From: Escherichia phage vB_EcoM-ZQ1
Length of the DNA stretch: 64,000 nt
Reading direction: 5' to 3' (one strand)
Sequence record: MW650886.1
Numbering within the stretch: position 1 is the stretch's first letter; each line of letters opens with the position of its first letter. A model generated the notes under the pieces. The model searched no databases. It was not told where the DNA came from and saw only the letters and a program-made list of their open reading frames with translations. Shown one piece after another: positions 2,013 through 45,431 of this stretch. The translations under genes were made by a program, and so were the position numbers.

Positions 2013-5000
2013 AACTTACCTAGTGCGATAGCGACGTACGGCGACGTTGTATTCCCGACAACGTTATACAGCCCAATCGGCGTTCGGTCTAATGATGGTA
2101 GCCTTGCCCCTGCAACACCACCAACACAGCCCAAAGGTAATGGGGTACTAAAGTTTAAATTAAGACGCTCAAAGATGGAGAAAGCCAGCGTTGGCACTAC
2201 CGGCACCAGTTCAATTATTTGAGGTCTTGTGCTAGCCGGAATGGAAACATTGTAAAACGATGCGAATGTTGTCCCGTCAGCCCTTTTCAATAACGGAGTC
2301 ACCGTCATGCCTGACTCCACTGGACCAATCATCAGGAACAGCCTGGTGATACCTGACAATTCAGTATTAACGCTGAAATACATATTACTGCTACTGGAGG
2401 TAGAGTTCACTCCAGAGAGCGAACCGAAACACGGAGTATCTTTTATGATACTTTGCAACCAATTAGCTTTAAAATTAGTTACCCTTTGTGTTCTGTTTTC
2501 CTGGGAGATAAAGAAATTCTGCCGGTGGATGCTGGTTACAACGTTCTCACCACTTCCGGAGTCTGGGACCTCATCAAACGATATTAACTCGTACACCCCA
2601 TCGGACACTTTCTTAGCCGACGCGTAGCAGCTGAAATAATCACCTTGATACACTATCTGTGATGTACTGAATGTGCTTAGATCGTAGGTAATGGTCAAGC
2701 TTACATTGCTGCGGTACATCGGAGTCACAGGACGTGAAGTAGTACCGGTAATTACCAGTGGGTCATCGAAGTCAGTGTACGCCTCAATTCGCGGGCCAGC
2801 GTACACATAATTGCTAACCAGTATTGACCAGCCGTTCGCCCCGGTTAGGTCATTTGTTTTACAAATAGCGATACCACCTGCGGAGCTACCAGTATTTGCT
2901 CTGATTACAGCAATCATTTGCCCGCGATAGTATCCAAGACAGGTTTCATTAATCAGGCTCCGCCCTGGAAAATCACTTATCTGAAAACTTTTAGTAACTG
3001 ACCATGTAGTACTTGCATTCAGAAGTACATCTGATGAAGTTACAAGCTGAACTTCTGTACCTGTTATACTGTAACGAGAAATAATAAGTTTGCCATCCGG
3101 TGTTGTTAATACGTTACCCCACTGATAATAATCATCCGTTGTTACGATGTCAGATTTGCTTGTAAATGCACCAGAGTTATTGAGATCTACGTACCCTACA
3201 ATAGTTTTTTTATAGGTATCTGCGGCGACGTCATGCAGCGTAAAGGCGATAATTAACTGATTACCTGGGTTGCTAACCGAAATGCTTGGCTCTTTTGCCG
3301 CTATACCCGCAGGTGGCACATATTCCCATATAACAGAAGCACTCCCGTCCTTGAGAATTTCTGCGATGCAGGCACTGTGCTTACCTGTTGCCTGATCGAT
3401 GTGTGCTGGCGATCGACGGAAACATAAAAGATTACGACCATTCCAGAATACGGTGTTACCAAATCCGTCATACTGTACCGTGGTATCTGTGTCTTTTAAT
3501 GACGTGAGGGTTGAAACGGCGGTTTTTAATGATGACATTGATTCTTTGGAAGTCACATCAACTGATGAATCCAATATAGATATTTCGTTATATATTGTAT
3601 CGATATTCTCCTGCACAGTTTTCCCATTACTGGAACCTGTAATCTGGGCACCATTATCTGATAATAAATCACTTCTTAAAGAAGCATCACCAACGCTAAC
3701 CCACGCACCAAGACCAGTACCACCAGATGCTTCAGGGGTTGAGCCAGATGGGACAGTTTTTGGAAACTCCCCTTCCCAGCGGTATTTACCTGTTGTATGG
3801 GTAAGTAATTCATTTTTAACATTAAGTGTAGCACCAGAATCAAATGTCCCGGACAATGTGACGTACTCTTCACGAGATACAGCCAATTCCCCAAGATCTA
3901 CAGAACCCGCTGAATGCACCAGTATAGCGGAAGAACTAAGACTGACAGCAGTAGTACCAGGGACAATATCAGCAGGCAAGGGATAAGCCCTTTGCGTCTC
4001 CTTGTCATAAATAACTTTATACCCACTTAACGCAGCACCAACACTAAAATAAACGACCTCTGTATCTTTAACATTGGCTACACGAGCCACTTCCCGCAAA
4101 GTATAATCAATTTGATTATAGATGTTTGGTGTTCCATTGATAATTACAACAACTTCATCCTCTGGTTCCAGTTCTTGCGCCAGAGTGATTTTACTGGTTA
4201 ATGGATCGAATGTGAATCCCAGATTTTTATACTGGCGACTTCCGTTTATATCAATGGCCGGAACATCATCAACAACGACGTCCAACGTGATTTCGGTTTC
4301 ACCACCAATCGCTGAACCCCCATTATAGACCCAAGTAATCGTAGAAGAACTAGAACCACCGCCATTACCCAATTGAATAGGAGTATATTCAATCACCTGA
4401 AGTTCTGTGTTGGCTGGCAAAGAAGGACTGAAAGTGATTACATTCCCATCTAGTGAATATTTGGATTCCGCAAGACGTTTCCCATCAGCATACACGTCCA
4501 CGATTGTTGGTGGAGTATTGAGAGCGACAGAACTTGTTTCAGACGCCAAAATTTTTGTAAAGATTTCACGACTGTAGACACGACCTTGGCCAAGACCGAC
4601 GCCGGATGTGATAACCCAACCTTGTTCAGGTCCAGACCAAGTGAACGTTGCTGATACGTTATCAGTTGTTATAGCCATGTCTTCAGTGGAGCCATACAAA
4701 TTATTTCCAGAAGGAGACACGGTCAATGGGTAAGTGGCAAATTTCCCATAAGCATCACAAATAGTAACGGAATCCCCAATACGCGTAGGGGAAGGGAGAA
4801 CCACTGTAGATGCCCCTGTGGTATTATTAATGAGATAGCCTCGCCCTTCAGTGAGCGTTGCCGTAGAGGCATGCGGAAGGACTTCCCAGCGGATACCACC
4901 GCCACCCAGCGGCAACCATCCACCATTTTCATAGAAGCCCTCAAATTCGTCGGAGTCGGCATTGTAGCGAACGGAAGACGGGAGTCCTGTGCTGGCATTA

Positions 5001-5161
5001 CCCTCGGGTAAAGTCAGGACAGCATCTGGTCCATGCTCAATCGTACCCGTGTTGAGGAGACCAGCCAAAGTAGACTGCTCTTCAGCCGCCAGACCGAGAG
5101 GGAAAACAGGCTGTGTTGGTTTATTAGCCATTTCAAATACCCCTAAATGTGTTCGTTTCAT
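2009..5161 (-). CDS. Large tailspike protein (about 1040-1050 aa); start probably the second ATG at 5131
   Basis: Long ORF with Gly/Ser/Thr-rich beta-rich composition; shares the ~95-aa module with ORF 14..1909 (residues around 350); first ATG lies inside an inverted repeat and the promoter-like motif, second ATG has SD AGGGG. Confidence 0.55.
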   Translation of the reverse strand: MKRTHLGVFEMANKPTQPVFPLGLAAEEQSTLAGLLNTGTIEHGPDAVLTLPEGNASTGLPSSVRYNADSDEFEGFYENGGWLPLGGGGIRWEVLPHASTATLTEGRGYLINNTTGASTVVLPSPTRIGDSVTICDAYGKFATYPLTVSPSGNNLYGSTEDMAITTDNVSATFTWSGPEQGWVITSGVGLGQGRVYSREIFTKILASETSSVALNTPPTIVDVYADGKRLAESKYSLDGNVITFSPSLPANTELQVIEYTPIQLGNGGGSSSSTITWVYNGGSAIGGETEITLDVVVDDVPAIDINGSRQYKNLGFTFDPLTSKITLAQELEPEDEVVVIINGTPNIYNQIDYTLREVARVANVKDTEVVYFSVGAALSGYKVIYDKETQRAYPLPADIVPGTTAVSLSSSAILVHSAGSVDLGELAVSREEYVTLSGTFDSGATLNVKNELLTHTTGKYRWEGEFPKTVPSGSTPEASGGTGLGAWVSVGDASLRSDLLSDNGAQITGSSNGKTVQENIDTIYNEISILDSSVDVTSKESMSSLKTAVSTLTSLKDTDTTVQYDGFGNTVFWNGRNLLCFRRSPAHIDQATGKHSACIAEILKDGSASVIWEYVPPAGIAAKEPSISVSNPGNQLIIAFTLHDVAADTYKKTIVGYVDLNNSGAFTSKSDIVTTDDYYQWGNVLTTPDGKLIISRYSITGTEVQLVTSSDVLLNASTTWSVTKSFQISDFPGRSLINETCLGYYRGQMIAVIRANTGSSAGGIAICKTNDLTGANGWSILVSNYVYAGPRIEAYTDFDDPLVITGTTSRPVTPMYRSNVSLTITYDLSTFSTSQIVYQGDYFSCYASAKKVSDGVYELISFDEVPDSGSGENVVTSIHRQNFFISQENRTQRVTNFKANWLQSIIKDTPCFGSLSGVNSTSSSSNMYFSVNTELSGITRLFLMIGPVESGMTVTPLLKRADGTTFASFYNVSIPASTRPQIIELVPVVPTLAFSIFERLNLNFSTPLPLGCVGGVAGARLPSLDRTPIGLYNVVGNTTSPYVAIALGKL

Positions 5162-5164
5162 CTA

Positions 5165-5175
5165 GGGGTATTTAG
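5165..5175 (-). promoter_or_regulatory. Late-promoter-like motif CTAAATACCCC (minus strand) at the start of the large tailspike gene
   Basis: Minus strand reads AAATACCCCTAGATGAAACGAACACATTTAGGGGTATTTGAAATG; motif is half of an 11-bp inverted repeat. Confidence 0.4.
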
Positions 5176-5183
5176 TTTTCACT

Positions 5184-6395
5184 TTAGAAAGAAGCGACTA
5201 GATTGTAGTCAACGGAGCACGCAGTCGTCGTGTTCGCATTTGTTATCGTCAAACGAAGTTTTGAAGACACTACAGAACCCGCGAATGTCACCGTACCGGA
5301 AGTGGACTTCTGTACCAACAGCTCAGACTTGATAGTCCCGTCACGGGTGATCGTCACGCGGTACGTATCCACGACGTTGCCTGTACCCCATTGTGCACTG
5401 ATCAACACCTGGCAAAGGTTCACCAAATCGAAGTCGGGTAACGCAGAGTTCCCAGAAGCAGAGACAGTGATACCGCTTGGGTTGGTCTTCCCGATCTTCA
5501 CACGGGCAGCAATGTCGGCGTCCAGGCTTGTCATTTTGGCGTTGTAGGTCGATGTGTTGACCTTTCCAGACAACGTGGTATTGATCGTGCCGATATCACT
5601 CTGAATGCCGCTGATGGAACCGTCCAACGCCGCCATCTTCGTGTTATACGTACTGACGTTCACTTTGTTGTTCGTCAGATCCAGTATACTGGTGTCCAGG
5701 CTAGACATCTTGGAGTTGTAAGTCGACGTGTTGACCTTCGCAGCCAGAGTGGTGTTGACAGTGTTGAACTGAGACTGGATATCCAACATATCGGCATCAT
5801 AATCAACAACCTTCAGATAAGCGTTGAAACGCGTATCATTGAAGATAGAAGCCACAAACGCAGATGTGTCGTACTTGACAGTGTCGGTTCCACTCACCAG
5901 TAACATGGTAGTTGGCACACCAGTACCAGAGTAATTGGCCAGATTTGTGCCATCGAAAGTGAGTTTGTTGTAGCCGCCAGGTAACAACTCGATTTTCAGA
6001 CCAGAGTTAACCCCGGCAGTGTCTTCACTCACGCCGTGCTTGCGCAGCATAGACAGATTGACGCCATCAGTGGAATCAACTGGCTCATCTGCGATGGTAA
6101 GTTTCTTCCCCGTAGGGATACTGACACCAGCATTGGCTCGGATTTCTGCGGCAAAAGTCTTCCGCCCGTTGATAGTTTGTTCACCACCGTCGGTACGGAT
6201 CACTTTGTTTTCCAGTGTGTCGTAGATATTATCCACAGAACGCTTCAGCTCATACGTCAAATGAGCTGAAGGAGGAAACAACGAATCATCAACAGCGAAA
6301 TCGTTGACAACATCAGTCTTGCTTATTTTATCGTCAACAGAAGAAAGGATTGCATCAATCTGCTGACCTGTGTATCGACTCAGAAAATCGGCCAT
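5184..6395 (-). CDS. Tail fibre protein with internal sequence repeats
   Basis: 403-aa ORF; repeated units VNTSTYNSKM / VNVSTYNTKM / VNTSTYNAKM typical of fibre shafts; strong SD AAGGAG upstream; located between baseplate-like and tailspike genes. Confidence 0.5.
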   Translation of the reverse strand: MADFLSRYTGQQIDAILSSVDDKISKTDVVNDFAVDDSLFPPSAHLTYELKRSVDNIYDTLENKVIRTDGGEQTINGRKTFAAEIRANAGVSIPTGKKLTIADEPVDSTDGVNLSMLRKHGVSEDTAGVNSGLKIELLPGGYNKLTFDGTNLANYSGTGVPTTMLLVSGTDTVKYDTSAFVASIFNDTRFNAYLKVVDYDADMLDIQSQFNTVNTTLAAKVNTSTYNSKMSSLDTSILDLTNNKVNVSTYNTKMAALDGSISGIQSDIGTINTTLSGKVNTSTYNAKMTSLDADIAARVKIGKTNPSGITVSASGNSALPDFDLVNLCQVLISAQWGTGNVVDTYRVTITRDGTIKSELLVQKSTSGTVTFAGSVVSSKLRLTITNANTTTACSVDYNLVASF

Positions 6396-6397
6396 TT

Positions 6398-7252
6398 TTA
6401 ACTCCTTGAACTTTCTAGGAATACAGTAAACCCAGCAGGATGGAAATGCTGACGGAAGACGCGATCAAACACACCTTCAAAATCAGATACGTTGCCAGGA
6501 ACTCTTATCACATACGTGAATTCATCATAGTAGTAATCGTCACGCATTCCTGTCGCGCCGTCACATTCAAAGTTGTCGTCCAGGCCACCAATTGCTTCCT
6601 TGGGATAATACACACTCACTGGGCAACCAAAGTAAATCCAGAAGAACAATTCAATCGCTTTCTTCGTCCCGCGAATGCGATAAATGTGTTTAAGTAACTT
6701 CAACCAGCGTACATGGTCCAGTGTCCGGCGTTCAGTTCCCTCGACATACACAGAGAGTGTGTCTCCGTCTGAAGTCACCAAACTGTCCGAACCAACTGGC
6801 ACAAACTTCCCGAACTCTAGGAAGGACTTATCAACCGTTCTCTGGAATCCAAAATCAGCATACCAATCGTCGATGCGTTCGTTCTTGTCTTCCATTGAGA
6901 TTAATGGCCGACCGTCCACGTCCAGCAAATCTTCGAAGTCTAGCGCCATCATGTTCTCAAACGTGCGCGTCAGGAACTTGTCTTCCAAGAAGTCTTTGGC
7001 CTCAGTACCTGGTGTCTTGCGCTTCTTGATGTCAATCAACTGCTCAATAGGAGACTGATCCGTATTTGGGTTCACCCAACCACCAGTGTCTGCCAGATAC
7101 GCCAAGATCTCCTCTTCGGTGAATCCCTGCTGTCGATACAACCAGTTGAAGAACGTATCCATAAACTCGATGAATACTGGGAATTCATTCTGGTAAAACA
7201 ATGGGGTTTCATATTTCACCCCATTGTGTCCGTTATTAAGATCTTTGGACAT
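6398..7252 (-). CDS. Hypothetical structural protein (baseplate or fibre-associated by context)
   Basis: 284-aa ORF overlapping the end of the upstream baseplate-like gene by 17 nt (translational coupling); no recognisable motif. Confidence 0.4.
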   Translation of the reverse strand: MSKDLNNGHNGVKYETPLFYQNEFPVFIEFMDTFFNWLYRQQGFTEEEILAYLADTGGWVNPNTDQSPIEQLIDIKKRKTPGTEAKDFLEDKFLTRTFENMMALDFEDLLDVDGRPLISMEDKNERIDDWYADFGFQRTVDKSFLEFGKFVPVGSDSLVTSDGDTLSVYVEGTERRTLDHVRWLKLLKHIYRIRGTKKAIELFFWIYFGCPVSVYYPKEAIGGLDDNFECDGATGMRDDYYYDEFTYVIRVPGNVSDFEGVFDRVFRQHFHPAGFTVFLESSRS

Positions 7253-43599: not shown

Positions 43600-43649
43600 A
43601 GAAAAAGGCGGTATTATTACCGCCTCGACCCCTTGTTTGGTAACATCAA

Positions 43650-43892
43650 ATGAGCCCAGAATTTGAAAATCTGTTCGAGCGATGCTTCGAACCAGGTTCT
43701 GTGTCCGGTTACATGGACCGCCTTTGCACTGCCATTGTAATACGCCTTGCTGCCAAGGGTATCGTTGTCAACACCATTATCAACAATGGGAACAACTTTA
43801 TCATGCAGATGACTGATTATCACCACCGCACAGGCATCATCCAGGTGTCATGTGTTGACAACAGCATTATTGAATGGAGACAGTACGCATGA
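43650..43892 (+). CDS. Hypothetical small protein
   Basis: 80-aa ORF. Confidence 0.4.
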   Translation: MSPEFENLFERCFEPGSVSGYMDRLCTAIVIRLAAKGIVVNTIINNGNNFIMQMTDYHHRTGIIQVSCVDNSIIEWRQYA

Positions 43893-44488
43893 CAACTTAT
43901 GTAATCAATGGTGGTGATCTACTGAAAGCCGCCTGTAGCTTCAATCTGATCGACATCTTTGCCCACGGTGCCAACTGTTGGTCTACCATGGGCGCGGGCA
44001 TTGCTCTGCACATCGGTAACAACTTCCCAGCCCTGCGTGAAGTCGATGCGAACGACCCTCGTGGTCCAGAGCAACGCCTGGGTGGCATGTCCTATGCATT
44101 TGACCACAGCACTGGTGTCTGGGGCGCGAACCTCTACACTCAGTTTTATCCAGGTCCGAACGCTCGCATGCCGTCTGTCATCAGTTCTGTTCAGATGTTG
44201 TTTGAGCAGGTTCACGAAATTGTGGAAGCAACTAAAGACGAAACCGTCTATGTCGGCCTGCCTGCTATCGGTTGTGGTATTGGTGGTCTGAACCTCTACA
44301 GTGTAGTGCGCCATATCAATCGAATCTCTGAAAGCGTGTATGAAGAGACCCGCCGTCGTGTCGTCCCAGTCTTCTATATCAGGGAAGGAGACGGATTCGA
44401 TGATGATCTGATGGAACTTTCTCATCTGGACACAGAAGGTATCATGATTGTCGAAGATGAGCAAGAAATCATCGACGAGGAGGCGTAA
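43874..44488 (+). CDS. Macro-domain protein (ADP-ribose binding / hydrolase fold)
   Basis: Macro-domain signature IFAHGANCWSTMGAGIA and second glycine-rich loop GLPAIGCGIGGL. Confidence 0.6.
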   Translation: METVRMTTYVINGGDLLKAACSFNLIDIFAHGANCWSTMGAGIALHIGNNFPALREVDANDPRGPEQRLGGMSYAFDHSTGVWGANLYTQFYPGPNARMPSVISSVQMLFEQVHEIVEATKDETVYVGLPAIGCGIGGLNLYSVVRHINRISESVYEETRRRVVPVFYIREGDGFDDDLMELSHLDTEGIMIVEDEQEIIDEEA

Positions 44489-45121
44489 ATGTACAAGTCT
44501 AATTTCCTTGCAGTTGCCGACAGCGAAACCCTGGGGCGCTGGGATGATGCAGTCATGCTGTCTTGGGCACACACCATCGCCGACCTGACCAAGCGTTATA
44601 CTCTTCAGCAGCTGGTTGAGGAGCGCACGACGTTCATTAAGCTGAATGTCAAAGAGCAGATCGAACTCGGTCGCGTGAAGGACCAGGGGACGGTAGAATG
44701 GTGGTTGGGGACGGGTAAACGTAACCCGTGTGATGCGGCTCGCGCCGTCAGTCTGTACCCCAAGGAAGATGACATCTCTATCTTCCAGCTGGCCGATGAA
44801 ATCCGCAAGGGTTGTCATCGTCTTGGGGTAGACCCGCGCTCGGTTGACTGGTGTGATCGCAACCTGTTTGATCTGCGCAAGGCTCAGCACATCATTGAGG
44901 TGACATGTAAGCAGGACTCCAACGAGCCTTGGGATTACCACCACACCTTCGACATCGTGAGCTGGCTGAAGGGTGTTGGGCAGCAGGATCGGTATGCTGG
45001 CATCAAGGCATGGGAACTGGAAGGTATGGTCTATCATGACCCTCGTTATGACGCTGCGCTTGACTGGCTGCGTATTCAGAAGACCATGGAAGATCTGATG
45101 GGTCTGGAGGTTGTGGGATGA
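44489..45121 (+). CDS. Putative DEDDh-type 3'-5' exonuclease (DexA-like)
   Basis: N-terminal FLAVADSETLG (DxE) and later YHHTFDIVSW (H-x4-D) resemble DnaQ-like exonuclease motifs. Confidence 0.4.
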   Translation: MYKSNFLAVADSETLGRWDDAVMLSWAHTIADLTKRYTLQQLVEERTTFIKLNVKEQIELGRVKDQGTVEWWLGTGKRNPCDAARAVSLYPKEDDISIFQLADEIRKGCHRLGVDPRSVDWCDRNLFDLRKAQHIIEVTCKQDSNEPWDYHHTFDIVSWLKGVGQQDRYAGIKAWELEGMVYHDPRYDAALDWLRIQKTMEDLMGLEVVG

Positions 45122-45420
45122 TTGTATTCACTGTCATCGGTGTGATCGTAACAGCTGGGGTGTTCACAGCCATATTGGGCTACCTGTACTTCATGTTCCT
45201 TCATCCGTTATTTCAGGCGTTCAGTCTCACGAATTGGTACTTGGCCTGCCTAAAGGCCGACGGCGGCGTGAACATGGCCTCTCTTCCTTACTGGCGGCTG
45301 GTAGCGCATTACTACTCGGTCGGTGGCTGGCCTGGGGAAAGGACATGGAACTCTATCGGTGAGTGGTATGGAATAGGTCGATGGCGTATATTCCCTGATG
45401 AAGACGATCAAGCCCCGTGA
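45118..45420 (+). CDS. Small membrane protein
   Basis: 100 aa with N-terminal TM helix; terminator hairpin overlaps its stop. Confidence 0.4.
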   Translation: MIVFTVIGVIVTAGVFTAILGYLYFMFLHPLFQAFSLTNWYLACLKADGGVNMASLPYWRLVAHYYSVGGWPGERTWNSIGEWYGIGRWRIFPDEDDQAP

Positions 45421-45431
45421 GGGGCTTTTCT
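45411..45431 (+). terminator. Intrinsic terminator
   Basis: Hairpin AGCCCC-GTGA-GGGGCT followed by TTTC. Confidence 0.5.

What the first reader, a model, noticed from the sequence alone, without database searches (positions are those of the whole stretch)
43874..45121. Macro-domain protein followed by a DEDDh-like exonuclease: possible anti-ADP-ribosylation module
The macro domain (glycine-rich loops HGANCWSTMGAGIA, IGCGIGGL) is the fold that binds or removes ADP-ribose. The next gene has DnaQ-like exonuclease motifs. Host defences that ADP-ribosylate DNA or make ADP-ribose-derived signals could be countered by such an enzyme.
Basis: inference. Interest (0 to 1): 0.5.

Follow-up and report, generated by a model that had tools for sequence, protein, structure and literature searches.

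The report
Phage anti-DarT macrodomain beside DexA exonuclease
The first gene is this phage's copy of the T4 Tk.4/AdfM macrodomain, which in T4 protects against the bacterial DarTG2 defence that ADP-ribosylates DNA, and the second gene is the ordinary DNA-scavenging exonuclease DexA, which is only a neighbour, so the pair is a known kind of gene plus a housekeeping gene and not a new two-gene system.

Summary
Both ORFs are real and sit on the + strand of an Ackermannviridae (Agtrevirus-like) phage. ORF1 (43874 or, more likely, 43889 to 44488) is a macrodomain. The AF2 model has pLDDT 95.9, its nearest folds are TARG1, DarG and Poa1p, and the only defence-library hit is DarG. It belongs to phrog_335 together with T4 Tk.4. 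A 2025 preprint showed genetically that T4 Tk.4 is the anti-DarTG2 factor AdfM.

Like T4 Tk.4 and 79 of 80 sampled relatives, ORF1 has Gln (Q90) where DarG and TARG1 have the catalytic Lys. Streptomyces SCO6735 has the same Gln (Q85, which is essential) and cleaves DarT-made thymidine-ADP-ribose on DNA. ORF1 lacks DarG's DarT-binding domain. It has a lineage-specific acidic 35-residue C-terminal extension.

ORF2 (44489-45121) is DexA, with all five DEDDh residues invariant.

The "module" idea is not supported. The two genes are adjacent in only 3 of 30 macro lineages sampled, they are about 52 kb apart in T4, and sister genomes carry different small genes inserted between them.

Verdict: the anti-ADP-ribosylation reading is right for the macro gene, resting on homology and not on any assay of this protein. 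The DexA link is coincidental. This is a new member of a known kind, of modest interest.

The parts
43889..44488 (+). adfM-like macrodomain gene (T4 Tk.4 family, phrog_335). The probable true start at 43889 gives 199 aa, so subtract 5 from the residue numbers used here.
43964..44005 (+). Motif HGANCWSTMGAGIA. H31 corresponds to SCO6735 H24 and TARG1 His. N34 corresponds to Taq DarG N22 and SCO6735 N27. MGAGIA is the first Gly-rich ADP-ribose-binding loop.
44129..44164 (+). Motif NLYTQFYPGPNA. Q90 (44141-44143) sits at the column of the catalytic Lys of DarG (K80) and TARG1 (K84), which is the position of SCO6735 Q85. It is Gln in 79 of 80 sampled relatives and in T4 Tk.4.
44267..44290 (+). Motif IGCGIGGL, the second Gly-rich (phosphate-binding) loop. 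TARG1 D125 is replaced by Gly, as in DarG.
44381..44485 (+). C-terminal extension specific to Ackermannviridae (residues 170-204; 15 Asp/Glu, 1 Lys/Arg). It is predicted to be folded and is absent from T-even Tk.4.
44489..45121 (+). dexA, a DEDDh 3'-5' exonuclease (phrog_255, PF16473 family). Catalytic codons: D11 44519-21, E13 44525-27, D128 44870-72, H183 45035-37, D188 45050-52. The start codon abuts the macro stop (TAA-ATG), with GAGGAGG 5 nt upstream.
43650..43892 (+). Upstream 80-aa DUF7234 gene of unknown function. Its stop overlaps the probable macro start (ATGA).
45118..45420 (+). Downstream 100-aa ORF with a hydrophobic N-terminus and no family hit. Its start overlaps the dexA stop (ATGA).
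43605..43626 (.). Palindromic G+C-rich hairpin upstream of the four-gene run. Possible transcript boundary (consensus match only).
45410..45427 (+). Terminator-like hairpin followed by a T-run, at the end of the four-gene run (consensus match only).
43919..45037 (-). 372-aa antisense shadow ORF spanning both genes. Not a gene.

Best explanation
ORF1 is an orphan, DarG-like macrodomain of the T4 Tk.4/AdfM family. The most likely mechanism is this. During infection, host DarT2 is released from DarG and ADP-ribosylates thymidines in single-stranded phage DNA. The phage macrodomain binds the ADP-ribosyl-thymidine and hydrolyses the base-ribose bond, which releases ADP-ribose and restores replicable DNA.

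Catalysis is probably of the SCO6735 type, not the DarG/TARG1 Lys type. Gln90 would be held by Asn34 and would position the distal ribose for attack by a water molecule.

ORF1 has no DarT-binding C-domain, so any direct inhibition of DarT would have to come from the macro core or from the acidic C-terminal extension.

ORF2 is DexA, a metal-dependent DEDDh 3'-5' exonuclease that degrades DNA to mononucleotides for phage DNA synthesis.

The two genes are co-oriented and tightly packed here. That reflects compact phage gene order and not a functional unit.

Shown: fold, family membership, motif content and synteny statistics. Inferred: substrate, chemistry, and the anti-DarTG2 role in this particular phage.
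For: - Family: ORF1 and T4 Tk.4 both fall in phrog_335 (E 8.8e-64 and 1.3e-65). Pairwise BLASTP gives 33% identity and E 2e-15, with shared AHGxNC, NLYTQxxPGPN and IGxGIG motifs.
- Function of the family: in a T4 transposon library, tk.4 was the only significant hit on a DarTG2 host, and a clean knockout became DarTG2-sensitive. The gene was named adfM (bioRxiv 10.1101/2025.11.20.689424). Chimallivirus AdfM removes DarT2-made ADP-ribose from DNA (PMC13309987).
- Relation to DarG: the only PADLOC and NCBIfam hits are DarG models, over the macro part only. The family profile hits Mtb DarG at 1.4e-16 and Taq DarG at 7.8e-16. Foldseek finds TARG1 at 2e-9 and DarG at 9e-9.
- Chemistry: Q90 aligns with DarG K80 and TARG1 K84. 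SCO6735 has Q85 at that position. Q85A/E and N27S lose activity, and the enzyme cleaves thymidine-linked ADP-ribose on DNA and protects against DarT (PMC9411070).
- Evolution: the macro gene diverges faster than dexA (71% against 94% amino-acid identity to L014; Bue1 50% against 75%). This is what is expected of an arms-race gene next to a housekeeping one.
- DexA: the DEDDh residues are invariant, and its roles are described in PMC12153337.
Against: - No experiment exists for any Ackermannviridae homologue.
- The T4 result is genetic only and comes from a preprint. Hydrolysis by a Gln-type phage macrodomain has not been shown in vitro.
- Identity to T4 Tk.4 is only about 33%.
- The SCO6735 DNA-positioning lysines (K34, K89) are not conserved here (A41, G94).
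- By single-sequence search, T4 Tk.4 is as close to Poa1p (ADP-ribose-1''-phosphate phosphatase, E 2.8e-6) and to BT1257 as it is to SCO6735 or DarG, so other ADP-ribose substrates remain possible.
- Macrodomains are often promiscuous.
- A second, divergent macro-exonuclease adjacency (L063/L047) leaves a small chance that the pairing has meaning.
Confidence: 0.6

Rival explanations
1. Two-enzyme module. The macrodomain and DexA cooperate. For example, DexA would excise or degrade ADP-ribosylated single-stranded DNA, or process ends after de-ADP-ribosylation.
For: - The genes abut (TAA-ATG) inside a four-gene run with overlapping start and stop codons.
- Both are present and close together in all 19 Ackermannviridae-like loci.
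- An unrelated phage lineage (L063/L047) also has a Gln-type macro gene followed 6 nt later by a PF16473 exonuclease.
Against: - 27 of 30 macro lineages have no DexA-family gene within 5 kb.
- T4 tk.4 and dexA are about 52 kb apart.
- tk.4 alone was the only hit on DarTG2 in T4.
- In sister genomes the junction carries unrelated inserted genes of 83, 114 or 131 aa.
- The two genes evolve at very different rates.
- DexA has no hit in PADLOC and already has described roles.
Confidence: 0.08
2. The macrodomain acts on small ADP-ribose derivatives and not on DNA. Candidates are ADP-ribose-1''-phosphate (Poa1p-like phosphatase), O-acetyl-ADP-ribose, and NAD-derived immune signals or toxic metabolites.
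For: - The family was first annotated as an A1pp phosphatase.
- Poa1p is among the top fold and sequence matches, and its H23 and S30 positions align with H31 and T38.
- A comparative-genomics survey argued that phage macrodomains mainly target low-molecular-weight ADP-ribose derivatives (PMC9503650).
- In other phages, relatives sit beside NAD-salvage genes or RNA-repair genes.
Against: - The T4 genetics tie the family to DarTG2, a DNA-modifying system.
- The only defence-library match is DarG.
- The Gln/Asn pair matches SCO6735, which has been shown to act on thymidine-ADP-ribose DNA.
- The two activities are not mutually exclusive.
Confidence: 0.15
3. The macrodomain reverses ADP-ribosylation of proteins or RNA, for example marks placed by host RNA- or protein-targeting ADP-ribosyltransferase defences or by phage transferases.
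For: - TARG1, the top fold match, removes ADP-ribose from Glu/Asp of proteins.
- SCO6735 also acts on auto-modified PARP1.
- An RNA-ADP-ribosylating defence is mentioned in PMC11825919.
Against: - The TARG1 Lys/Asp dyad is absent (Q90, G137).
- No ADP-ribosyltransferase gene was seen among the immediate neighbours.
- There is no genetic evidence for this role in the family.
Confidence: 0.1
4. A non-catalytic ADP-ribose binder (reader or sponge), because the catalytic Lys is missing.
For: - Q90 replaces the Lys that is essential in DarG and TARG1.
- Catalytically dead SCO6735, DarG and TARG1 still inhibit DarT by interaction.
Against: - SCO6735 is active with the same Gln and depends on it.
- H31, N34, T89, Q90 and G94 are invariant across very divergent phages, which points to a conserved active site.
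Confidence: 0.05

Closest known systems
T4 Tk.4 = AdfM (anti-DarT factor macrodomain; bioRxiv 10.1101/2025.11.20.689424)
   Same: Same PHROG (335). Same motif set, AHGxNC / NLYTQxxPGPN / IGxGIG, with Gln at the DarG-Lys column. A stand-alone macrodomain with no DarT-binding domain. Encoded among early or nucleotide-metabolism genes of a large myovirus.
   Different: Only 33% identical. The window protein is about 45 residues longer, with an acidic, predicted-folded C-terminal extension. The gene neighbourhoods differ: vs/tk in T4, DUF7234/dexA here. The window protein is from a different virus family (Ackermannviridae) and is untested.
Chimallivirus AdfM (PhiKZ gp104; PMC13309987)
   Same: A phage-encoded orphan DarG2-like macrodomain that counters DarTG2. 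The Asn equivalent to DarG N22 is present.
   Different: PhiKZ AdfM keeps the catalytic Lys (N23/K78 according to the paper), whereas the window protein has Gln. PhiKZ AdfM is imported into the phage nucleus, which Ackermannviridae are not known to have (background knowledge, not tested here).
Streptomyces coelicolor SCO6735 (PDB 5E3B; PMC9411070)
   Same: An ALC1-like macrodomain with Gln at the DarG-K80/TARG1-K84 position, plus the His, the Asn and the Gly-x-Gly loop. An orphan gene with no cognate DarT. The family profile hits 5E3B at E 4.9e-12.
   Different: It is bacterial. Its DNA-positioning lysines K34 and K89 are not conserved in the phage family. I did not obtain a residue-by-residue alignment to 5E3B, so the equivalence is transitive, through DarG and TARG1.
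DarG2 antitoxin (Mtb 5M3I, T. aquaticus 5M31/5M3E)
   Same: The best sequence-profile relatives and near-top fold matches. Shared Asn and Gly-rich loops.
   Different: No catalytic Lys. No C-terminal DarT-binding domain: only about 130 of 338 model positions are matched, at 32.8 bits against a cut-off of 250. No adjacent darT gene.
T4 DexA exonuclease A (the 227-aa exodeoxyribonuclease chains 8KEL/8KEN are identified here as T4 DexA by sequence; PMC12153337)
   Same: ORF2 shares phrog_255, the PF16473 family and all five DEDDh residues.
   Different: 26% identity. ORF2 lacks the roughly 10-residue insert after Exo II and the C-terminal tail of T4 DexA. T4 DexA's discrimination of 5hmC DNA and its temperature-dependent oligomer switch cannot be assumed for this protein.

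Membership tests
Macro domain superfamily (Pfam PF01661 clan) | Macro fold: a mixed beta-sheet sandwiched by helices | tested here: met
   AF2 pLDDT 95.9. Foldseek probability 1.0 to TARG1, DarG, Poa1p and viral macrodomains.
Macro domain superfamily (Pfam PF01661 clan) | The query itself reaches the Pfam gathering score | tested here: not met
   16.1 bits against a cut-off of 22. More distant homologues of the same family do carry PF01661.
Macro domain superfamily (Pfam PF01661 clan) | Two Gly-rich ADP-ribose/phosphate-binding loops | tested here: met
   MGAGIA and IGCGIGGL align to the corresponding loops of DarG and TARG1.
T4 Tk.4 / AdfM family (phrog_335) | Significant homology to T4 Tk.4 and the same profile family | tested here: met
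   BLASTP E 2e-15, 33% identity. phrog_335 at 8.8e-64 for ORF1 and 1.3e-65 for T4 Tk.4.
T4 Tk.4 / AdfM family (phrog_335) | Shared active-site signature (His, Asn, Thr-Gln, Pro-Gly-Pro-Asn) | tested here: met
   Alignment A2. Gln in 79 of 80 relatives.
T4 Tk.4 / AdfM family (phrog_335) | Protects the phage from DarTG2 | not testable with these tools
   Shown only for T4 and for the Lys-type chimallivirus proteins.
DarG2 antitoxin (NCBIfam NF048014, PADLOC DarG) | Catalytic Lys (Taq K80) | tested here: not met
   Gln90 occupies that column.
DarG2 antitoxin (NCBIfam NF048014, PADLOC DarG) | Conserved Asn (Taq N22) | tested here: met
   N34 aligns and is invariant.
DarG2 antitoxin (NCBIfam NF048014, PADLOC DarG) | C-terminal DarT-binding domain and full-length model score | tested here: not met
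   Only model positions 6-135 of 338 are matched, at 32.8 bits against a cut-off of 250. PADLOC positions 20-134 of 329.
DarG2 antitoxin (NCBIfam NF048014, PADLOC DarG) | Encoded next to darT | tested here: not met
   The neighbours are DUF7234, DexA and a small ORF with a hydrophobic N-terminus. None of them has a PADLOC hit.
SCO6735-type (Gln) ALC1-like hydrolases | Gln at the Lys column, with Asn and His in the first loop and a Gly-x-Gly phosphate loop | tested here: met
   H31, N34, Q90 and G133/G135 have the same spacing as H24, N27, Q85 and G126/G128. The equivalence is transitive, through DarG and TARG1 alignments and the paper's statements.
SCO6735-type (Gln) ALC1-like hydrolases | DNA-positioning Lys34 and Lys89 | tested here: not met
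   The corresponding positions are A41 and G94. This is inferred from spacing and not from a direct alignment.
DexA / DEDDh (DnaQ-like) exonucleases, PF16473 | Exo I D-x-E, Exo II D, Exo III H-x4-D | tested here: met
   D11, E13, D128, H183 and D188 are invariant in 18 sequences including T4 DexA. They are aligned to 8KEL.
DexA / DEDDh (DnaQ-like) exonucleases, PF16473 | The query itself reaches the Pfam gathering score | tested here: not met
   16.8 bits against a cut-off of 27. Homologues and T4 DexA pass, and phrog_255 gives 1.3e-53.
DexA / DEDDh (DnaQ-like) exonucleases, PF16473 | 3'-5' exonuclease activity on DNA | not testable with these tools
   Known for T4 DexA.

The most novel reading that the evidence does not exclude
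The Ackermannviridae AdfM may be a two-part inhibitor. In addition to hydrolysing thymidine-ADP-ribose, its conserved, predicted-folded, strongly acidic 35-residue C-terminal extension (15 acidic, 1 basic) might act as a DNA mimic that binds DarT2 directly. That would be a minimal functional analogue of DarG's DarT-binding domain. Alternatively, the extension might tether the enzyme to the replisome.

The variable slot between adfM and dexA, which holds different small genes in sister genomes, may be an accessory or anti-defence gene hotspot.

A weaker version of the novel reading is that the macro-exonuclease pairing, which recurs in a second unrelated lineage (L063/L047), reflects real cooperation in clearing ADP-ribosylated single-stranded DNA.
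Probability: 0.12. Interest if true: 0.55.

Novelty: new member of a known kind. Interest (0 to 1): 0.3.

Why it matters
Ackermannviridae phages (Kuttervirus, Agtrevirus) are widely isolated against Salmonella, Shigella and E. coli O157:H7. If ORF1 protects them from DarTG2, it would be one determinant of their host range.

The analysis adds one point of wider use. The whole phage Tk.4/AdfM family (phrog_335), found in about 2,650 deposited phage genomes, carries Gln and not the DarG/TARG1 catalytic Lys. It therefore belongs mechanistically with SCO6735 and not with DarG or the chimallivirus AdfM. The two papers on AdfM that I read do not mention this. It is directly testable with Q-to-A and Q-to-K mutants, and one natural K variant exists (L038).

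The analysis also warns against reading tightly packed phage genes as functional modules.

Tried and rejected
1. "No catalytic Lys, so inactive or a mere reader." Rejected, because T4 Tk.4 has the same Gln and is genetically active against DarTG2, and SCO6735 needs that Gln for activity.
2. Filing ORF1 as DarG or as chimallivirus-type AdfM. Rejected on the Lys column, the missing C-domain and the missing darT neighbour.
3. A conserved macro-DexA operon. Rejected by synteny in 79 loci and 30 lineages, in T4, and in five annotated phage genera, and by the insertions found in sister genomes.
4. Promoter and terminator scans. Counts are not above the shuffled expectation (7 against 7.9, and 9 against 6.5). 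Only two hairpins flanking the four-gene run are worth noting.
5. The Foldseek afdb50 library was unavailable.
6. I could not get a printed residue alignment to SCO6735 (5E3B), because it never ranked among the five alignments shown.
7. The 372-aa antisense ORF has no family hit, and its frame is inconsistent with the substitution pattern.
8. Literature on Thoeris and sponge proteins gave nothing on phage macrodomains of this family.
9. P0080, the Gln-type relative closest to DarG, turned out to be phage-borne and is not a DarT-linked bacterial antitoxin.
Full report
**What is there**

The window is an Ackermannviridae phage. Region 43600-45400 is 97.6% identical to Escherichia phages A221 and LHE287 and 85-90% identical to Agtrevirus phages (Ag3, SKML-39, MK-13, ChubbyThor).

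Two + strand ORFs occupy the finding: 43874-44488 (204 aa) and 44489-45121 (210 aa). They lie in a run of same-strand genes:
- topoisomerase II subunit
- small ORFs
- DUF7234
- macro
- DexA
- a small ORF with a hydrophobic N-terminus
- YunG-like
- phosphoesterase
- dCMP deaminase

Against a Kuttervirus-type relative (L014), substitutions fall mainly on third codon positions. The counts at positions 1/2/3 are 45/31/120 for macro and 13/3/79 for dexA. Both frames are therefore under purifying selection. The 372-aa ORF on the opposite strand has no family hit and is a shadow ORF.

ORF1 probably starts at ATG 43889 and not at 43874. That ATG overlaps the upstream stop as ATGA and has GGAG 9 nt upstream. 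Most homologues are 199 aa, and LHE287 is annotated that way. Residue numbers below follow the 204-aa form. Subtract 5 for the 199-aa form.

**ORF1 is a macrodomain of the ALC1-like (TARG1/DarG) class**

The single-sequence Pfam score is below threshold (16.1 bits against 22). Other evidence establishes the identity:
- ORF1 matches phrog_335 at 8.8e-64.
- Its homologues grade into proteins that carry PF01661.
- A profile of 64 homologues hits Mtb DarG (1.4e-16), T. aquaticus DarG (7.8e-16), TARG1 (about 1e-13), SCO6735 (4.9e-12) and Poa1p (about 1e-10).
- The AF2 model is very confident (pLDDT 95.9, pTM 0.92).
- Foldseek places it next to TARG1 (E 2e-9, target TM 0.80), DarG and Poa1p.
- In the viral structure library its best full-length matches are other Ackermannviridae macro proteins, followed by Felixounavirus-type proteins and Acinetobacter phage 133 Tk.4.
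- In PADLOC and NCBIfam the only hits are the DarG models. They cover only the N-terminal macro part (positions 6-135 of 338) and score far below the equivalog cut-off (32.8 bits against 250).

ORF1 is therefore an orphan DarG-like macrodomain. It has no DarT-binding domain and no neighbouring darT gene.

**The family is the T4 Tk.4 family, and Tk.4 is now known as AdfM**

tblastn finds relatives in 2,658 phage records. They include T-even-like phages (where the gene is annotated tk.4 in JS98), Felixounavirus, Vequintavirus, Pakpunavirus and Acinetobacter phages.

T4 Tk.4 falls in the same PHROG (1.3e-65) and aligns to ORF1 at 33% identity, E 2e-15.

A 2025 preprint (HIDEN-SEQ, 10.1101/2025.11.20.689424) infected a DarTG2-expressing host with a T4 transposon library. 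It found tk.4 as the single significant hit, and a clean knockout was sensitised to DarTG2. The gene was named adfM. The authors inferred, but did not demonstrate, enzymatic removal of ADP-ribose from DNA.

Independently, chimallivirus macrodomains (PhiKZ gp104 and others) were named AdfM and were shown to remove DarT2-made ADP-ribose from DNA. Their putative active-site residues are N23 and K78 (PMC13309987).

Neither paper mentions Ackermannviridae.

**The active site differs from DarG in one defining residue**

In every alignment I made, the family motif N-L-Y-T-Q aligns with DarG N-F-P-T-K and TARG1 L-I-T-K. This holds for the profile against PDB, for a MAFFT alignment with DarG and TARG1 segments, and for the bridging homologue P0080 against Mtb DarG at E 2e-18.

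Q90 therefore occupies the column of the catalytic Lys (Taq DarG K80, TARG1 K84). The conserved Asn (Taq N22) is kept as N34. H31, N34, C35, N86, T89, Q90 and G94 are invariant in the 64-sequence alignment.

Among 80 sequences from 79 viral loci plus the query, 79 have Gln and one (L038) has Lys. L038's siblings at 60% identity or more all have Gln. T4 Tk.4 has the same Gln.

I first took this as a sign of inactivity. The literature argues otherwise. [quoted passage not shown]
- Q85A and Q85E abolish activity.
- N27S nearly abolishes it, because Asn27 locks the Gln rotamer.
- The enzyme cleaves thymidine-linked ADP-ribose on DNA and protects S. coelicolor from DarT.
- The authors proposed a water-mediated mechanism (PMC9411070).

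The spacing H31/N34/Q90/G133/G135 mirrors SCO6735 H24/N27/Q85/G126/G128. This equivalence is transitive, because I could not get a printed alignment to 5E3B. The SCO6735 DNA-positioning lysines (K34, K89) do not appear to be conserved here (A41, G94).

**ORF2 is DexA**

ORF2 matches phrog_255 at 1.3e-53, as does T4 DexA. It aligns to PDB 8KEL, a 227-aa exodeoxyribonuclease whose aligned residues are those of T4 DexA. D11, E13, D128, H183 and D188 (DEDDh) are invariant in 18 homologues including T4 DexA.

T4 DexA is a 3'-5' exonuclease with two described roles: host-DNA scavenging for nucleotides and intron homing (PMC12153337). ORF2 has no PADLOC hit.

**Is the pair a module?**

In the window the genes abut (TAA-ATG, with GAGGAGG 5 nt upstream). 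They sit in a four-gene run with ATGA overlaps at both ends, bracketed by hairpins at 43605-43626 and 45410-45427. Promoter and terminator consensus counts in the region are not above the shuffled expectation.

Synteny outside this phage:
- In 79 viral loci carrying a relative of ORF1, a DexA-family ORF lies near the macro gene in all 19 Ackermannviridae-like loci.
- Elsewhere it lies near the macro gene only in L063/L047. That is an unrelated contig type with a 33%-identical Gln-type macro followed 6 nt later by a PF16473 exonuclease (Pfam E 2.4e-40).
- L049 has a DexA-family ORF 4.5 kb away.
- By lineage (30 clusters at 60% identity), 27 have no such exonuclease within 5 kb.
- In T4, tk.4 (about 61 kb) and dexA (about 8.5 kb) are far apart.
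- Annotated Felixounavirus, Vequintavirus, Pakpunavirus and Lazarusvirus records show no adjacent exonuclease.

Within Ackermannviridae the junction is not fixed either:
- L010 (90% identical macro) has an 83-aa HTH-like ORF between the two genes.
- L011 has a 131-aa ORF there (phrog_5613, unknown function).
- Kuttervirus-type loci have a related 114-aa ORF there.

The two genes also evolve at different rates: 71% against 94% amino-acid identity to L014, and 50% against 75% to Erwinia phage Bue1.

I conclude that the adjacency is inherited gene order within one virus family, with one possibly independent recurrence. It is not evidence of a two-enzyme system.

**Lineage-specific feature**

Ackermannviridae versions carry a 30-43-residue C-terminal extension. 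In the window it is REGDGFDDDLMELSHLDTEGIMIVEDEQEIIDEEA, with 15 acidic residues and 1 basic residue. The extension is acidic throughout the family and absent from T-even Tk.4 and most other lineages. AF2 predicts it as a folded helix-strand-helix with pLDDT above 93. Its function is unknown. Because DarG's second domain and even catalytically dead macrodomains can inhibit DarT by interaction, a DNA-mimic or docking role is conceivable but untested.

**Most likely mechanism and its status**

- Shown here: fold, family membership, active-site composition, absence of DarG's second domain, DexA identity, and the synteny statistics.
- Taken from papers: T4 Tk.4 protects against DarTG2; Lys-type AdfM and Gln-type SCO6735 hydrolyse DarT2-made thymidine-ADP-ribose.
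[quoted passage not shown] DexA works separately in nucleotide salvage.

I put about 0.6 on that combined statement. The main alternatives are other ADP-ribose substrates:
- A Poa1p-like Appr1p phosphatase activity. By single-sequence search T4 Tk.4 is as close to Poa1p and BT1257 as it is to SCO6735 or DarG.
- Small-molecule immune signals, as argued in PMC9503650.
- ADP-ribosylated protein or RNA.

A true macro-DexA partnership gets about 0.08.

**Novelty**

The concept and the gene family are already described, in 2025-2026 papers. This is an uncharacterised member in another virus family, with a distinctive acidic extension. It also carries a family-wide Gln-for-Lys active site that the two AdfM papers I read do not comment on. 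Interest is modest.

Noticed in passing
window 44486-44491; L010 5618-5869; L011 5612-6007; L014 5618-5962: The macro|dexA junction is a variable slot in Ackermannviridae. It is empty in the window. L010 has an 83-aa HTH-like ORF there. L011 and the Kuttervirus-type loci have a 114-131-aa ORF of unknown function (phrog_5613). It may be an accessory-gene hotspot.
   Followed up: partly
L038 (IMGVR_UViG_2974573495), macro ORF 4923-5387: This is the only natural Lys at the catalytic column (NLYTKFRPG). Its siblings at 60% identity or more (L033-L035, L041) have Gln. Q and K are one nucleotide apart, so the two active-site types may interconvert.
   Followed up: partly
L063 4971-6056 and L047: An unrelated phage contig type has a Gln-type macro gene followed 6 nt later by a PF16473 (Rv2179c/DexA-family) exonuclease (Pfam E 2.4e-40). 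This is a second, divergent macro-exonuclease adjacency.
   Followed up: partly
window 44381-44485: The 35-residue C-terminal extension of the macro protein is strongly acidic (15 D/E, 1 K/R). It is conserved as acidic in Ackermannviridae, is predicted to be folded, and is absent from T-even Tk.4.
   Followed up: partly
L007 (Pseudomonas phage PaGz-1) 614-2986: In Pakpunavirus the homologous macro gene lies just downstream of nicotinamide phosphoribosyltransferase and ribose-phosphate pyrophosphokinase genes (NAD salvage).
   Followed up: no
L090 1528-5486: The DarG-closest Gln-type homologue (P0080) is on a phage contig that also carries rIIB, Endo VII and WhiB. It lies near a PNKP-like HAD phosphatase and a PolyA_pol/CCA-type nucleotidyltransferase, which is an RNA-repair-like context.
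   Followed up: no
window 43874 vs 43889: The macro ORF's annotated start differs between public records (615 nt in ChubbyThor, 600 nt in LHE287). The ATGA overlap and the GGAG spacing favour 43889.
   Followed up: yes
window 43919-45037 (- strand): A 372-aa antisense ORF spans both genes. It has no PHROG hit and its frame is inconsistent with the substitution pattern. It is a shadow ORF that a gene caller could mis-call.
   Followed up: yes
L089 (T4) 2226-7131: In T4, dexA lies about 3 kb from the ADP-ribosyltransferase genes modA and modB, while tk.4 is about 52 kb away.
   Followed up: no
window 43650-43892 and 45118-45420: The macro and dexA genes are flanked by a DUF7234 ORF (80 aa) and a 100-aa ORF with a hydrophobic N-terminus, both of unknown function. 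These are joined to them by ATGA start/stop overlaps. Hairpins at 43605-43626 and 45410-45427 bracket the four genes.
   Followed up: partly
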